DNA of 53,211 nucleotides from a virus (IMGVR_UViG_3300025875_000036:1-53211); one strand, 5' to 3'. Counted from the first letter of the stretch, positions 5,313 to 9,291 are shown. Made by a program: numbers and translations. Notes: generated from the letters alone by a model not told the origin.

Positions 5313-5867
5313 ATGGAGGAGCCACAAGACAACGAGTACCAATTGGGGGACAACCCCGGCTGGGCAAAATACAAAAAAATATTTTTTAGGAACGGCGAGA
5401 AGTACATGTCGGCCTGGGAGACCCTGGGGCGTATAGTACAAAGCGGGTTAACCGATGAGCAGCTTTGCGCCGTTTACGACATCGATACATCAACCTACTA
5501 TAAATGGCGGGAGCGGTATGCGGAATTTTCCGAGGCCGTTGATGTTAATAAAAGGCGGTTTGATGACGGGCGGGTTGAGGCGGCATTTTACCAACGGGCC
5601 ACAGGGTTTAAGGCCAAAGAGACCAAAGCCTTTGTTATCCAGGGTAAAATAGTTACAACCGAAGTGGATAAGTACTTTCCGCCCGACACTGGTGCCGGTT
5701 CAATCTGGCTTTACAACCGGCAACCGGACCGCTGGCGGGCGATTAGCCATATTGACTACACAAACAAAAACCCGGCGGCGGACGAGCAATTTGACACGAG
5801 TAAATTAACCGATGAGCAACTTGAGCTCTTTGAATGGCTTTTAGATATTATGCAAAAAAAGGATTAA
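5313..5867 (+). CDS. terS: Terminase small subunit (probable)
   Basis: N-terminal HTH (GLTDEQLC...STYYKW), RVEAAFYQRATG and PPDTGA..WL.NRQPDRWR are typical TerS motifs. Confidence 0.8.
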   Translation: MEEPQDNEYQLGDNPGWAKYKKIFFRNGEKYMSAWETLGRIVQSGLTDEQLCAVYDIDTSTYYKWRERYAEFSEAVDVNKRRFDDGRVEAAFYQRATGFKAKETKAFVIQGKIVTTEVDKYFPPDTGAGSIWLYNRQPDRWRAISHIDYTNKNPAADEQFDTSKLTDEQLELFEWLLDIMQKKD

Positions 5868-5870
5868 AAA

Positions 5871-6089
5871 ATGGATACAGAGCAAACCGCCAGCGCCCTG
5901 GCTAATTTAATTATCGCGTTTTTATTTTGTTTTTTTATAGGTGCCTTTATATGGCTGGCATCTACCTACGGCCTCGGGCTCACCTTTTTGATAGTTGCCG
6001 CCGTTTTATTAGTTTTAATTATTATCATTTATACCCGTTACATATATTATAAACGTTTTAAAAACCGTAAAAATGGAAATAAAAATTGA
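5871..6089 (+). CDS. Small two-TM membrane protein
   Basis: 72 aa; two hydrophobic helices and a basic tail. Confidence 0.65.
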   Translation: MDTEQTASALANLIIAFLFCFFIGAFIWLASTYGLGLTFLIVAAVLLVLIIIIYTRYIYYKRFKNRKNGNKN

Positions 6090-6309
6090 AATAGACGATG
6101 ATTTAACTAAAGAAGTTAAAACTCGAATCCCACACGATTGTATTAGTTGCGGTCAAGTTATACCCGCTAAACAGCAAGCCAGGGCGGTTAGTTACCGAAC
6201 CGATAACGGGCGTAAACTATACAAGGTGTACCAACATGCCGAGTGTGCAAAGACGGAGGATGCCAAAAAAATAGTTGTAAATAATATAACCCAAAGTTTG
6301 CAGGGTTAA
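6073..6309 (+). CDS. Small Zn-finger protein
   Basis: H-x-CISC...H..C motif. Confidence 0.7.
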   Translation: MEIKIEIDDDLTKEVKTRIPHDCISCGQVIPAKQQARAVSYRTDNGRKLYKVYQHAECAKTEDAKKIVVNNITQSLQG

Positions 6310-6338
6310 TATATTTGCGTATATTTGTACGTACTAAA
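6295..6338 (+). promoter_or_regulatory. Promoter with dyad box, copy 3
   Basis: AGTTTGCA...CGTATATTTGTACGTACTAAA (6318-6338). Confidence 0.85.
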
Positions 6339-6358
6339 AAACCTAATTAAAAACAGTT

Positions 6359-6543
6359 ATGAGAGGTAACCCATTACGAATTTTGCTATTATTGCCGTTT
6401 TAGGCTTGTTAATTTTTGCTTTTACCCGTTGCGATAGCCCCGAGGATGTTGCACCTAAAAAGGTAACGGTTGCACCAAAAACCGAAATCAAATCAGATGG
6501 AGGCATATTACGTGTTAGATGCTCGTGGTGTGATAAAGAATAA
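6359..6543 (+). pseudogene. Small lipoprotein gene broken by a 1-nt frameshift (or started at ATT 6373)
   Basis: The ATG-6359 frame stops after 14 codons; the -1 frame reads ITNFAIIAVLGLLIFAFTR-CDSPEDVAPKK...CSWCDKE* (signal peptide and lipobox). Confidence 0.55.
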
Positions 6544-6740
6544 TTAATAGTACCCTGATTGAAAGTAAAACCGGTAGAAATCTGCTCTATAGAGGGCTTG
6601 AATGGTGAATTAACACCATAGGAGAGTATTCCAGTTGTATCCCGACAGCGTTGGTTTTATGAGTAGATAATACAAGGCACCCGCCGAGGCGAGGAGAGCG
6701 TGTAAACTTATACTGGATTATAAGCAGGGTATTATTAATT
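6542..6740 (+). ncRNA. Candidate ~200-nt structured RNA
   Basis: 16-bp closing stem 6542-6557/6725-6740 with one G-U pair, several internal hairpins and a possible pseudoknot; no ORF. Confidence 0.6.
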
Positions 6741-6750
6741 TAAAGTACCG

Positions 6751-6827
6751 GTTGCCGCCGGTTCTATACACGAGGGCGTAATTTGAGGGCCGCGTTAAGC
6801 ATTGCCTGAAGCACGGGCGGCGGCAAC
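6751..6827 (+). ncRNA. Candidate 77-nt structured RNA
   Basis: GTTGCCGCCG...CGGCGGCAAC perfect 10-bp terminal stem. Confidence 0.5.
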
Positions 6828-6898
6828 TTCTTTATACATGGCCGTCAAGGTAGTGAATCAAATTCGTAAGCCGGGCCGCGTGAGTGCCCGGTAATACC

Positions 6899-6999
6899 GG
6901 GCGGTAAGGTGTATTTTGGAATAGCACGTGTGAAATAGCCCCGTTGACGGACGGTTAGCTTAGTAACAAGGAAAGCAGGTTCGAGTCCGGCACCACCCA
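6899..6999 (+). ncRNA. tRNA-like RNA with an extended, non-canonical anticodon arm
   Basis: Acceptor GGGCGGT/ACCACCC plus discriminator A; D-arm GTGT-ATTTTGGAATA-GCAC; T-arm GCAGG-TTCGAGT-CCGGC; ~46 nt replaces the anticodon and variable arms; no encoded CCA. Confidence 0.7.
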
Positions 7000-7018
7000 C
7001 AAATACTTAAAAGCAAAC

Positions 7019-7357
7019 ATGGGACTAAGAACTTTGGCAACCGCTGAGGCGGTAAAACTTAAAAAGAACGCCCCGGCGCGGGCCTTAAAAAACATTACCC
7101 CGGCCCGTATTATAGAGGAGGGATTATACGGAGTTTTAACCGGCTTTGTATACGGCAACTCCGCCGTAAAGCTCGCCCGCCGTTGCGCCCTACCTTATAG
7201 CGACCGGATTAAATATGTAACCGATGAAAACGGCGGATTTACTATTAGCAACGAACGGGCCTTTACCGCCCTGGAGTACTACGTTGCCCGGCCCGAGGCT
7301 CGGCTTGTTAACCTTTGCGATTTTTTAAGCAGTAAATCAGACAACCTTGTTTTATAA
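7019..7357 (+). CDS. Hypothetical protein
   Basis: 112 aa with an A-rich leader. Confidence 0.7.
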   Translation: MGLRTLATAEAVKLKKNAPARALKNITPARIIEEGLYGVLTGFVYGNSAVKLARRCALPYSDRIKYVTDENGGFTISNERAFTALEYYVARPEARLVNLCDFLSSKSDNLVL

Positions 7358-7613: not shown

Positions 7614-7736
7614 ATGACACGGCCCCAAAGAAAAATAGTCTTGTACTTTATTTTCACCGTTGCAATTTGCCTCGTCGTAGGGGGTTTATCAGCCGTTATT
7701 TTAAATATTATTGATATGCTTAATTTTAAAAAATAA
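7614..7736 (+). CDS. Single-TM peptide (40 aa, not in the ORF track)
   Basis: MTRPQRKIVLYFIFTVAICLVVGGLSAVILNIIDMLNFKK; fits exactly between its neighbours. Confidence 0.6.
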   Translation: MTRPQRKIVLYFIFTVAICLVVGGLSAVILNIIDMLNFKK

Positions 7737-7737
7737 C

Positions 7738-8076
7738 ATGGCCGAGGAACCTGAAAAAATCAGCAAACGCAAACAACTATACATCACCCTCGCTATACAA
7801 CAGTATAACGATATTTATTTACCCCTGGCAAAACAACAGGAGCTCAAAAAAATAACCTCGGAACGTGATTACGTTGAGCGGGCGTTAGCTAATTTTGAGA
7901 ACTGGGAGGTGCAATCAAACCAGTGTAAACTATTAGGACACCAGCAGCAGACGCTCAATTTTTTCGGCAAAGACGTGACAGCATGTGCCCGGTGTGGGGT
8001 TACGGAGCAACTAAGTGATATCCTATTCCCGTCGGTAGCTAACAAGCTAAAAAATGGACTTCCTGACAATACTTAA
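7738..8076 (+). CDS. Hypothetical protein (ATG 7738 preferred)
   Basis: Coiled coil followed by a C...GH...CARCG Zn motif. Confidence 0.65.
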   Translation: MAEEPEKISKRKQLYITLAIQQYNDIYLPLAKQQELKKITSERDYVERALANFENWEVQSNQCKLLGHQQQTLNFFGKDVTACARCGVTEQLSDILFPSVANKLKNGLPDNT

Positions 8077-8556: not shown

Positions 8557-9291
8557 ATGAACTATTATATTGATACTGAGTTTTTTGAGGGTTTTGTAAA
8601 CCCGTTATGGGGTAAGCGCCGCCATTTTATCGACCTTATAAGTATCGGTATCGTGAGCGGTGACGGGCGCGAGTATTATGAAATTAGTAGCGACTTTGAG
8701 GTGGCCCGTGCCTGGTATAATGCCGACACCTGGGTTCGCGATAATGTATTGCTCCCTATTGTTTTTGAGTGTAGTTATAAAGAGCACTTTATAGGTACAC
8801 CGAGCGAGGGGGTATATCAAAGCTGGGCCGATGGTGTAAAGGAAGCCCCTCAATGGGAGACGTTCTGGTATCACCGGGCGGTATTTTACTTTAAAAAGTA
8901 CGGCAAAAAAAACTCGGTTATCGCCAGCGAGATTGTTTTGTTTGTTTACCGGGGCGCGGCGGTTAAAACAGCTGAGGAGTGGGGTAAAAATGTTAAGTTT
9001 GATTTTTACGGTTATTATGCCGATTACGACTGGGTATTGCTTTGCAGCCTGTTCGGACGGATGGTTGACTTACCTACCGGGTTCCCGATGTTTTGCCGCG
9101 ATTTGCAACAAACCAAACAAGAGCTGGAGGATGCACTTGACAGGCCCGGCACCGACATCGATTATAATTTAAACGAGGATAGCGACTATCCACAGCAAAC
9201 CGGGCAGCATAATGCTTTACAGGACGCCCGCTGGAATAAACAATTACACGAGTTTTTATTAAAATACCGGGAGCGGCAAAAAAATAATTAA
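8557..9291 (+). CDS. DEDDh 3'-5' exonuclease, Rv2179c/RNase AS (DUF5051)-like
   Basis: YYIDTEF, LISIGIV, YYADYDW, CRDLQQ and HNALQDARW motifs. Confidence 0.85.
   Translation: MNYYIDTEFFEGFVNPLWGKRRHFIDLISIGIVSGDGREYYEISSDFEVARAWYNADTWVRDNVLLPIVFECSYKEHFIGTPSEGVYQSWADGVKEAPQWETFWYHRAVFYFKKYGKKNSVIASEIVLFVYRGAAVKTAEEWGKNVKFDFYGYYADYDWVLLCSLFGRMVDLPTGFPMFCRDLQQTKQELEDALDRPGTDIDYNLNEDSDYPQQTGQHNALQDARWNKQLHEFLLKYRERQKNN

What the first reader, a model, noticed from the sequence alone, without database searches (positions are those of the whole stretch)
6840..6999. tRNA-like RNA with an intact elbow, replaced anticodon arm and an upstream leader able to unfold it
Seen: D-loop GG and T-loop TTCGAGT are canonical, and the acceptor and T stems each have one mismatch. 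The anticodon region is a long irregular arm (TAGCC-CCG-TTGA-CGG-AC-GGTTA) with no 7-nt loop. Upstream, CCGTCAA (6842-6848) is exactly complementary to TTGACGG (6944-6950) at the tip of that arm, and the hairpin GCCCGGTAATACCGGGC (6886-6902) sequesters the first four acceptor bases. Known: the elbow is what RNase P and CCA-adding enzyme recognise, and bacterial YrlA RNAs and tmRNA use tRNA mimicry. Inference: a non-decoding tRNA mimic whose folding or maturation is switched by its leader, possibly a decoy for tRNA-targeting toxins. An intron-containing or decaying tRNA is the alternative.
Basis: partly seen in the sequence, partly recalled or inferred. Interest (0 to 1): 0.75.

Follow-up and report, generated by a model that had tools for sequence, protein, structure and literature searches.

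The report
Phage tRNA relic-like RNA without anticodon
A phage carries, behind a conserved leader hairpin, a tRNA-shaped sequence that keeps the acceptor, D and T arms but has no usable anticodon loop; related phages have either an ordinary tRNA or a similarly damaged one at the same place, so it is a tRNA derivative that cannot decode, and the proposed leader switch is not supported.

Summary
The described bases are all there. Alone, the element is weak. ARAGORN and the Rfam tRNA model find nothing, and fold energy is ordinary.

Relatives settle that it is tRNA-derived. The window is a 53-kb phage. Its closest relative has a tRNA-like element in the syntenic place, ahead of the homologous small ORF. 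That element scores 38.4 bits on Rfam tRNA and has a 21-nt anticodon loop. Further phages share the leader hairpin. Three contigs follow it with a normal tRNA-Gln and one with another aberrant tRNA frame.

An unrelated phage group shows the same design: hairpin, tRNA frame with an unalignable middle, then an ORF.

The long arm and the leader-arm pairing are not conserved. The 7-mer complement arises in 948 of 5000 shuffles.

Best reading: a non-decoding tRNA derivative kept for its processing frame. A decaying tRNA is the main rival. No expression data exist.

The parts
6406..6543 (+). Small lipoprotein-like ORF inside what first looked like a 709-nt gap. It leaves 6544-7018 as the truly noncoding stretch.
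   Evidence: Largest + strand gap is 6310-7018. The ORF is homologous to L316:3814-3999. Its N-terminal part is out of frame with the upstream ATG.
6648..6672 (+). Conserved upstream noncoding block (GCGTTGGTTTTATGAGTAGATAATA).
   Evidence: Near-identical blocks lie upstream of the tRNA slot in L308 and L318; alignment A2.
6707..6745 (+). Conserved block CTTAT..ATAAG hairpin followed by CAGGGTATTATTAATTTAAAG; possibly a promoter or regulatory site.
   Evidence: Present in all 5 aligned regions: window, L316, L310, L318, L308.
6834..6869 (+). Conserved leader block ending in CGTAA.
   Evidence: Aligns with ATACCCGGCCCAAGTCGGTATAATGAGACGTAA of L102/L274. The 7-mer complement to 6944-6950 is at chance level.
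6870..6892 (+). Leader hairpin GCCGGGC-C-GC-GUGA-GU-GCCCGGU, member of a widespread motif (CGUAA, N3-5, GGC CGCGUNAGU GCC).
   Evidence: -15.5 kcal/mol. In 18 aligned instances 97.5% of cells pair, 26 cells change on both sides, and 0 of 500 shuffles reach this. Found in 11 viral and 26 metagenome stretches.
6886..6902 (+).
   Evidence: -12.0 kcal/mol. It is mutually exclusive with 6870-6892 and is not chosen in the fold of 6866-6906 or of 6840-6999.
6899..6999 (+). tRNA-like element. Acceptor 6899-6905/6992-6998 (6 of 7 pairs); linker AAG; D arm GTGT-ATTTTGGAATA-GCAC 6909-6927; basal 'anticodon' stem 6929-6933/6964-6968; 30-nt loop 6934-6963; T arm 6975-6991; discriminator A6999. No CCA is encoded.
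   Evidence: Relaxed ARAGORN (-ps80 with introns) draws the same acceptor, D and T arms. Default ARAGORN and Rfam give no hit. The frame-constrained fold is -24.6 against an MFE of -24.7 kcal/mol.
7000..7005 (+). CAAATA, short conserved block just 3' of the slot.
   Evidence: CAAATA follows the discriminator in L102/L316 and follows CTG in the tRNA-Gln phages; L318 has CAACAT.
7019..7357 (+). 112-aa ORF of unknown function that starts 20 nt after the element.
   Evidence: 41% identical over 95 aa to the ORF that follows the L102/L316 element. No Pfam or PHROG family. No informative Atlas hit.

Best explanation
The element 6899-6999 descends from a tRNA gene. It sits in a conserved 'tRNA slot' of a phage leader region, directly behind a conserved leader hairpin and 20 nt ahead of a small ORF.

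It has kept the parts that tRNA-maturation enzymes read: the acceptor/T-arm minihelix, the T loop and the D-loop GG elbow. It has lost the anticodon stem-loop, which is now a 30-nt irregular insert, so it cannot decode.

The mechanism I think most likely is as follows; all steps are inferred and none is shown. The leader is transcribed through the hairpin and the element. RNase P cuts at G6899 and frees the hairpin leader. A 3' endonuclease cuts after A6999 and CCA may be added. This yields a stable tRNA-shaped small RNA and a defined 5' end for the downstream message.

Only the frame is then under selection and the middle is free to vary. In sister phages a working tRNA-Gln does the same job in the same slot.
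For: 1. Orthology. The closest relative has TerL 70% identical by tblastn (66% over 289 aa on L316). It has a tRNA frame in the syntenic gap between homologues of window genes 6073-6309 and 7019-7357. That frame has a perfect 7-bp acceptor, a T arm with the identical GGTTCGAGTCC, and a 21-nt anticodon loop. It scores 38.4 bits on Rfam tRNA.

2. The same leader hairpin is followed by a normal tRNA-Gln(UUG) in 3 contigs (L274=L310, L308, L309). In L318 it is followed by another aberrant frame with a 34-nt loop, scoring 23.8 bits. L310 and L316 share the leader up to the tRNA 5' end and then differ.

3. An unrelated phage group has the same layout: a hairpin, 5-6 nt, then a tRNA frame with a 30-63-nt middle, then an ORF about 25 nt later. 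L052 and L056 share the acceptor and D arm, have one compensatory T-stem change, and have unalignable middles of 63 and 61 nt.

4. In all 6 aberrant element types the lesion is in the anticodon domain. T loops stay canonical and acceptors keep 6-7 of 7 pairs.

5. In G001 and G004 the aberrant element is the only Rfam tRNA match at E<=1.

6. The tRNA-frame fold of the window element costs nothing against its MFE: -24.6 versus -24.7 kcal/mol.
Against: No transcript data exist: no RNA run holds the region, so expression, ends and CCA addition are unknown.

The window copy is the most degenerate of the set. It has mismatches in both the acceptor and the T stem, A instead of U at position 8, a 3-nt linker, and no Rfam hit even at E<=10. 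This fits relaxed constraint.

In L318 the element is followed by an intrinsic-terminator-like hairpin rather than an ORF, so 'mRNA 5'-end maker' cannot be the whole story.

Acceptor differences between window and L316 may reflect replacement by different tRNAs rather than compensatory evolution. The second phage group was first noticed with a frame-based descriptor, which biases towards intact frames.

Only 6 aberrant types from two phage groups were seen.
Confidence: 0.4

Rival explanations
1. A decaying tRNA gene. The slot normally holds a working tRNA. In this lineage the gene was inactivated by an insertion or rearrangement in the anticodon loop and is drifting; the frame is still recognisable only because little time has passed.
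For: The same slot holds an intact tRNA-Gln in 3 contigs. There is a graded series of Rfam tRNA scores: slot tRNA-Gln 55.6-60.8 bits, L316 38.4, L318 23.8, window no hit. The window copy has mismatches in the acceptor and T stems and A at position 8. The middle is not conserved in sequence or shape.
Against: All 6 aberrant types are hit in the anticodon domain and keep canonical T loops. L052 and L056 keep perfect acceptors with a compensatory T-stem change while their middles are wholly replaced. The window and L316 elements sit at an orthologous place in phages whose flanking protein is only 41% identical; a neutral sequence should be unrecognisable unless both losses are recent and independent.
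Confidence: 0.3
2. A trans-acting tRNA mimic. The processed RNA would bind and titrate a tRNA-recognising factor such as a host tRNA-targeting defence nuclease, a synthetase or a modification enzyme. Several relatives' frames look tRNA-Leu-like, and LeuRS does not read the anticodon (both points recalled, not tested), so some could even be charged without decoding.
For: The frame is retained, the anticodon is lost, and the form recurs in two phage groups. It is the only tRNA-like gene in G001 and G004. In L318 it looks like a stand-alone small RNA gene with a terminator.
Against: Nothing links it to any defence or partner. A decoy for anticodon nucleases should mimic an anticodon loop, and it does not. 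The middles find no significant match in the phage or in 2.8 Mb of held loci. The 112-aa neighbour has no family.
Confidence: 0.15
3. A real decoding tRNA whose anticodon loop carries a short intervening sequence that is removed after transcription.
For: With introns allowed, ARAGORN at default thresholds calls L056 as tRNA-Tyr(GUA) with a 19-nt insert at 37/38 and L316 as tRNA-Ser(ACU) with a 14-nt insert at 37/38.
Against: For the window, intron mode at default thresholds finds nothing. No cut of the 30-nt loop leaves Y32-U33...R37, read directly from the sequence. No bulge-helix-bulge is apparent. The inserts are far too short for group I introns. The ACU anticodon and the L052 call (ATC, insert at 34/35) are implausible. 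The tRNA-Gln in the slot has U1-A72, a bacterial trait (recalled), and bacteria have no known protein-based tRNA splicing (recalled).
Confidence: 0.05
4. Chance resemblance: a T-loop-like 11-mer plus fortuitous pairings in a regulatory spacer.
For: The statistics for the window alone are weak. No program calls it at default settings.
Against: A tRNA or tRNA frame occupies the same place, with the same spacing from the same leader hairpin, in every relative seen.
Confidence: 0.02

Closest known systems
Phage-encoded tRNA genes and tRNA pseudogenes / 'tRNA-like' candidate structured RNAs of phages
   Same: It sits where sister phages carry a working tRNA-Gln, and it has acceptor, D and T arms. 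A survey of IMG/VR reports candidate RNAs that only sometimes overlap ARAGORN tRNA calls (PMC10690425, passages read).
   Different: There is no anticodon stem-loop, and default ARAGORN and the Rfam gathering score are not met. The same kind of lesion recurs in 6 element types. I could not see that paper's supplements, so I cannot say whether these elements are among its candidates.
YrlA / bacterial Y RNAs
   Same: A non-decoding RNA with T-arm and D-arm mimicry that tRNA enzymes can act on; also found in phages (PMC4201824, abstract and passages read).
   Different: [quoted passage not shown] It is encoded next to Ro60. Here the order is that of a normal tRNA with an open acceptor. No TROVE gene is in the phage and there is no Rfam match.
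tmRNA tRNA-like domain
   Same: Acceptor plus T arm with the anticodon arm replaced by other RNA. The same leader hairpin motif also precedes a permuted tmRNA in L292.
   Different: The element is about 100 nt with no tag reading frame. It has G3-C70 rather than G3.U70. ARAGORN's tmRNA search finds nothing.
tRNA-like processing signals (mascRNA at the MALAT1 3' end; mitochondrial tRNA punctuation; tRNA-mRNA co-transcripts)
   Same: This is what I think it works like: a tRNA-shaped module inside a longer transcript, read by RNase P and a 3' endonuclease. The L316 element gave a weak mascRNA-menRNA alignment of 19.5 bits, below that family's gathering score of 42.5.
   Different: It is not a member of those families, since the Rfam score is far below threshold. 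Processing is not shown here, and the known examples are eukaryotic or organellar (recalled).
Stable RNAs 'species 1 and 2' of the phage T4 tRNA cluster
   Same: Phage small RNAs in a tRNA context with tRNA-like 3' parts (recalled from memory, no call).
   Different: No sequence relation was tested, and their function is also unknown.

Membership tests
Canonical tRNA (Rfam RF00005 / ARAGORN) | 7-bp acceptor stem with a discriminator base | tested here: inconclusive
   6 of 7 pairs with a C4.A69 mismatch; discriminator A6999; no CCA encoded.
Canonical tRNA (Rfam RF00005 / ARAGORN) | T arm with a 5-bp stem and a TTCRANN loop; D arm with GG in its loop | tested here: met
   GCAGG-TTCGAGT-CCGGC with 4 of 5 pairs and G53-C61 kept; D arm GTGT-ATTTTGGAATA-GCAC. 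The linker is 3 nt, and position 8 is A rather than U.
Canonical tRNA (Rfam RF00005 / ARAGORN) | 5-bp anticodon stem closing a 7-nt loop with U33 | tested here: not met
   The stem UGUGA/UAACA has a G.A mismatch and closes a 30-nt loop that starts AA.
Canonical tRNA (Rfam RF00005 / ARAGORN) | Score over the family threshold or a default program call | tested here: not met
   ARAGORN finds 0 genes. Rfam gathering gives 0 matches. There is no tRNA hit at E<=10. Only ARAGORN at -ps80 with introns draws it.
YrlA / Y RNA | Encoded next to a Ro60 (TROVE) gene | tested here: not met
   PF05731 gives 0 matches in the 99%-complete phage record.
YrlA / Y RNA | Permuted layout: T arm before D arm, closed acceptor-like stem-loop, Ro-binding stem formed by the RNA ends | tested here: not met
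   The window element has D arm before T arm and an open acceptor. The family layout is taken from PMC4201824 passages.
tmRNA | tRNA-Ala-like acceptor with G3.U70, a tag reading frame and pseudoknots | tested here: not met
   G3-C70. ARAGORN tmRNA searches are empty, including at -ps80. No Rfam tmRNA hit.
attP core carrying the 3' end of a host tRNA gene | An integrase in the phage, and identity of the fragment to a host tRNA 3' end | tested here: not met
   No tyrosine integrase or serine recombinase domain. The 21-mer T arm plus acceptor occurs in only 2 of the genome contigs records, both in coding-looking sequence without a tRNA. Only one genome per species was searched.
Intron-containing tRNA | Removing the insert restores a 7-nt loop with U33 and a purine at 37; a splicing motif or a self-splicing intron is present | tested here: not met
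   ARAGORN intron mode at default thresholds finds nothing in 6300-7100. No cut of the loop gives Y32-U33...R37 (reading). A 30-nt insert is too short for a group I intron (established knowledge). Splicing itself cannot be tested with these tools.
Leader hairpin motif (unnamed; CGUAA, N3-5, GGC CGCGUNAGU GCC) | CGUAA, then a stem with a variable outer part and an invariant GGC/GCC inner part, and a CGCGUNAGU apex | tested here: met
   Window 6865-6892 fits. The outer 4 pairs covary in 18 instances. No Rfam family matched it at gathering score in the window or in the 14 loci that carry it.

The most novel reading that the evidence does not exclude
Phages of at least two unrelated groups carry a class of 'tRNA-scaffold' RNAs. 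These have a conserved tRNA frame (acceptor, D arm, T arm) in which the anticodon arm is replaced by an exchangeable 30-63-nt insert. They are transcribed behind a conserved leader hairpin that is itself a widespread, unannotated RNA motif.

The frame would give processing, stability and perhaps charging, since some frames look tRNA-Leu-like and LeuRS ignores the anticodon (both recalled). The insert would be a variable functional cargo, or a way to escape or bait tRNA-directed host defences.
Probability: 0.2. Interest if true: 0.8.

Novelty: new variant of a known kind. Interest (0 to 1): 0.5.

Why it matters
Phage tRNA genes are usually read as codon-usage helpers or as replacements for tRNAs cut by host defences. 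Here the tRNA frame is kept while decoding is lost, at a fixed place behind a conserved leader hairpin, in two unrelated phage groups. This points to a use of tRNA shape that has nothing to do with translation: processing, stability or mimicry. It could be tested with simple RNA-end mapping.

It also shows that standard tRNA finders miss these elements, so phage 'tRNA-less' genomes may carry them unnoticed. If the window copy is only a relic, the finding is ordinary. The recurrent pattern in relatives is the part worth following.

Tried and rejected
- Direct similarity searches with the window region found nothing: blastn against 50,697 phage records, an exact 25-mer in viral contigs, and nhmmer against the first 100 and then 170 loci.
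- The 112-aa ORF gave no related loci in viral contigs, no tblastn hit in phages and no informative Atlas neighbour.
- attP / host tRNA 3' end: rejected.
- Y RNA and tmRNA membership: rejected.
- Expression: no RNA holder was listed by the look-up of sequencing runs. Read laying on three DNA runs gave no contig across 6616-7270, so nothing could be learnt about variants or ends.
- Antisense or guide idea for the middle. The best matches inside the phage are 11-mers on the same strand, and 144 of 300 shuffles reach 11 or more. The six middles against 2.8 Mb of loci gave nothing below E = 0.15 apart from self-matches.
- blastn of the L310, L318 and L052 regions against phage records gave only tRNA-Gln hits in Caulobacter phages, or nothing.
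- The promoter/terminator scan of 6200-7200 gave no clear picture.
- My first hairpin regex was mis-registered and was redone.
- The enforced-frame energy for the window is not comparable, because non-standard pairs were forced. It was recomputed.
Relatives cannot be drawn for a virus record. Metagenome loci are not held for the genome search. One literature query had a bad term.
- Literature searches found no description of this element or of the leader hairpin. Supplements were not seen.

Full report
**What is in the window**

The window is a whole IMG/VR phage record of 53,211 nt, estimated 99% complete. Almost all genes are on the + strand. They include a large terminase, portal, head and tail genes and a replication module. 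There is no tyrosine integrase or serine recombinase domain. The best cultured TerL relatives are Flavobacterium phages at 44% identity, so a Bacteroidota host is a reasonable guess (inference).

The finding lies at the 3' end of the largest + strand gap, 6310-7018. Part of that gap is a small lipoprotein-like ORF at 6406-6543. This leaves 6544-7018 noncoding. A 112-aa ORF starts at 7019.

**Check of the observation**

I add two points. First, a 3-5-bp basal stem (6929-6933 with 6964-6968) closes the irregular arm, so the layout is that of a tRNA whose 7-nt anticodon loop has become a 30-nt insert. Second, the tRNA-frame fold is as good as the unconstrained optimum: -24.6 against -24.7 kcal/mol.

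By itself the element is not convincing.
- ARAGORN finds no tRNA or tmRNA.
- Rfam finds nothing at gathering score, and no tRNA match even at E<=10.
- Only ARAGORN at 80% thresholds with introns allowed draws the same acceptor, D and T arms.
- Fold z-scores are -0.67 and +0.56.
- The T-loop 11-mer appears in 12 of 100 shuffles of the window.
- A shuffled upstream sequence supplies the acceptor and D arm in 937 of 20000 trials.
- A loose descriptor hits 103 times in 2.8 Mb of other loci.

**Relatives**

The closest relative by TerL is L102, 70% identical. The complete contig of that phage is L316. It is syntenic around the gap: homologues of window genes 5313-5867, 6073-6309, 7019-7357, 7711-8076, 8557-9291 and TerL lie in the same order.

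At the matching place, directly before the homologue of the 112-aa ORF (41% identity), it has an 88-nt tRNA frame. The acceptor GGCAAGG/CCTTGCC is perfect, the D arm is Leu-like, the T arm is UCGGG-UUCGAGU-CCCGG, and CAAATA follows, as in the window. Default ARAGORN misses it. The Rfam tRNA model scores it 38.4 bits and aligns a 5-position anticodon stem, with one A.A mismatch, around a 21-nt loop.

Both elements are preceded by a hairpin with the same apex, CGCGUKAGU, and different but complementary stems.

**The leader hairpin and the slot**

Scanning for that hairpin motif gave 11 viral and 26 metagenome stretches (contexts).

Among phages that also share two further upstream blocks with the window, the hairpin is followed at the same spacing by one of two things.
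- A normal tRNA-Gln(UUG) in L274=L310, L308 and L309 (cut by the contig end). These are supported by ARAGORN and by Rfam at 55.6-60.8 bits.
- In L318, a 100-nt tRNA frame with a 34-nt loop, scoring 23.8 bits, below the gathering score. A terminator-like hairpin follows it.

L310 and L316 are almost identical through the leader and diverge exactly at the tRNA 5' end. The slot therefore exchanges its occupant.

The hairpin is real. In 18 aligned instances 97.5% of cells pair, 26 cells carry changes on both sides, 0 of 500 shuffles reach that, and slid controls pair at 21-49%. Of the 32 distinct instances listed, I left out 7 that lie in coding-looking sequence, plus near-duplicates.

The same motif also occurs in other settings:
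- ahead of a permuted tmRNA (L292);
- ahead of a tRNA buried in a long stem (L312);
- in 5' untranslated regions (L183, L298, L315);
- near the terminator of a roughly 170-nt small-RNA-like unit in betaproteobacterial contigs.

No Rfam family matched it at gathering score.

**A second phage group with the same design**

Loci fetched through the deoxyribosyltransferase gene include phages with a different hairpin, CCGGG-UGAAAGY-CCCGG. It is followed by 5-6 nt, a tRNA frame, and about 25 nt later an ORF beginning MAKYN.

There are three types: L052 (115 nt, 42.6 bits), L056 (112 nt, 35.1 bits) and L046 (79 nt, no hit). L052 and L056 share the acceptor and D arm. Their T stems differ by a compensatory change (CTCGG/CCGAG versus CCTGG/CCGGG). 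Their middles of 63 and 61 nt cannot be aligned.

In G001 and G004 the aberrant element is the only tRNA-model match at E<=1.

The core idea holds: this is a tRNA-shaped RNA that cannot decode. The switch does not.
- CCGTCAA lies in a conserved leader block that reads GGCCCAAG in relatives.
- Its 7-mer complement in the arm is expected by chance, with 948 of 5000 shuffled leaders having one.
- The arms of relatives are unrelated in sequence, length and predicted shape, with energies of -3.4, -5.3 and -9.4 kcal/mol.
- The hairpin 6886-6902 (-12.0 kcal/mol) competes with the conserved leader hairpin (-15.5 kcal/mol). It is not chosen in folds of the longer stretch. A weak analogue exists only in L316 (my reading).

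A switch is therefore not excluded, but it has no comparative support.

**Mechanism**

The parts that stay intact in all six aberrant types are those that RNase P, 3' processing enzymes and the CCA-adding enzyme read (established knowledge). The anticodon domain, which they ignore, is free. A working tRNA can fill the same slot.

I therefore favour a processing and stability module: a tRNA handle cut out of the leader transcript. I give this 0.4.

The main rival is plain decay of a tRNA gene, at 0.3. The window copy is the most degenerate of the set, and scores fall in a graded series.

A trans-acting mimic or decoy (0.15) and a spliced tRNA (0.05) remain possible. ARAGORN in intron mode calls L056 and L316 with inserts at 37/38, but it calls nothing for the window at default thresholds.

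No step of any mechanism is shown. There are no RNA data.

**Comparison with known systems**

It is not a YrlA/Y RNA: the layout is different and there is no Ro60 gene. It is not a tmRNA. It is not an attP tRNA fragment. It does not pass as a canonical tRNA.

It works most like tRNA-like processing signals. It belongs with phage tRNA derivatives of the kind loosely reported as 'tRNA-like' candidates in IMG/VR (PMC10690425, passages read). I could not see that paper's supplements.

**Verdict**

The feature is real and tRNA-derived. It is a new variant of a known kind. Interest is 0.5, mostly because the same form recurs in relatives and because of the unannotated leader hairpin, not because of the window copy itself.

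Noticed in passing
window 6865-6892; L183, L190, L237, L246, L290, L292, L293, L298, L300, L312, L315 and others: A widespread hairpin motif (CGUAA, N3-5, variable outer stem, GGC CGCGUNAGU GCC) with strong covariation. It is not matched by any Rfam family at gathering score. It occurs in leaders of tRNAs, tRNA-like elements, a permuted tmRNA and mRNAs of phage-like contigs.
   Followed up: partly
L303:11090-11290 (- strand) and about 15 similar metagenome loci (L293, L295-297, L301-307, L313, L317, L320-322): A conserved unit of about 170 nt between two intrinsic terminators. It has a TACAAT-like -10 and ends with the same hairpin motif plus a terminator. It looks like an unannotated small RNA gene of betaproteobacterial (prophage-like?) DNA. 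Rfam gave only sub-threshold Trp_leader and isrK alignments.
   Followed up: partly
L312:900-1090, L290, L185, L294: A larger conserved structure: the hairpin motif, then a long stem (ACCATCACG...CGTGATGG) that encloses either a complete tRNA (L312, 51.9 bits) or other inserts. It has conserved ends (..GCAGTACC..GGCAAATGG.. and ..GGCAGCAGCCCATGAGGCACCTGAAACATG) just before an ORF.
   Followed up: no
L052:1010-1170, L056:798-955, L046:1848-1970: A second family: hairpin CCGGG-UGAAAGY-CCCGG, then a tRNA frame with a 30-63-nt non-anticodon middle, then a DUF1064-like ORF (my reading of the MAKYN... sequence; not scanned). The frames are identical between L052 and L056, but the middles are wholly different.
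   Followed up: partly
L310:4950-5060 versus L316:4460-4570: The two phages share a nearly identical leader up to the first base of the tRNA slot, then carry different occupants (tRNA-Gln versus an aberrant frame). This implies cassette-like exchange at the slot.
   Followed up: partly
window 6352-6543: A small lipoprotein-like ORF homologous to L316:3814-3999. In the window the upstream ATG (near 6358) is in another frame and runs into a stop after 14 codons. The signal-peptide part therefore looks shifted by one base, or the gene starts at TTG 6406.
   Followed up: partly
window 6943-6956 and L052 middle: The window arm and the otherwise unrelated L052 middle share CGT(T)GACGGACG(G)TT, with an exact 9-mer TGACGGACG, in both cases at the tip of a small hairpin. 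My rough estimate of chance is about 0.01 per pair before correcting for the several pairs compared.
   Followed up: no
L046:4807-4872 (- strand): A further tRNA-model match (32.9 bits) with good D and T arms but four non-standard pairs in the acceptor. It may be another damaged tRNA in the same phage.
   Followed up: no
window 6648-6672 and 6707-6745: Two noncoding blocks upstream of the leader are conserved in phages that share no detectable proteins with this part of the window (L310, L308, L318). The noncoding module is therefore more conserved, or more mobile, than its flanking genes.
   Followed up: partly
window 8557-9291: A DEDD-type 3'-5' exoribonuclease-like gene (PHROG 'RNase H', Pfam Rv2179c-like) lies 1.5 kb downstream of the element. 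Its homologue lies 1.1 kb downstream of the L316 element. Any link to 3' trimming of the tRNA-like RNA is pure speculation.
   Followed up: no
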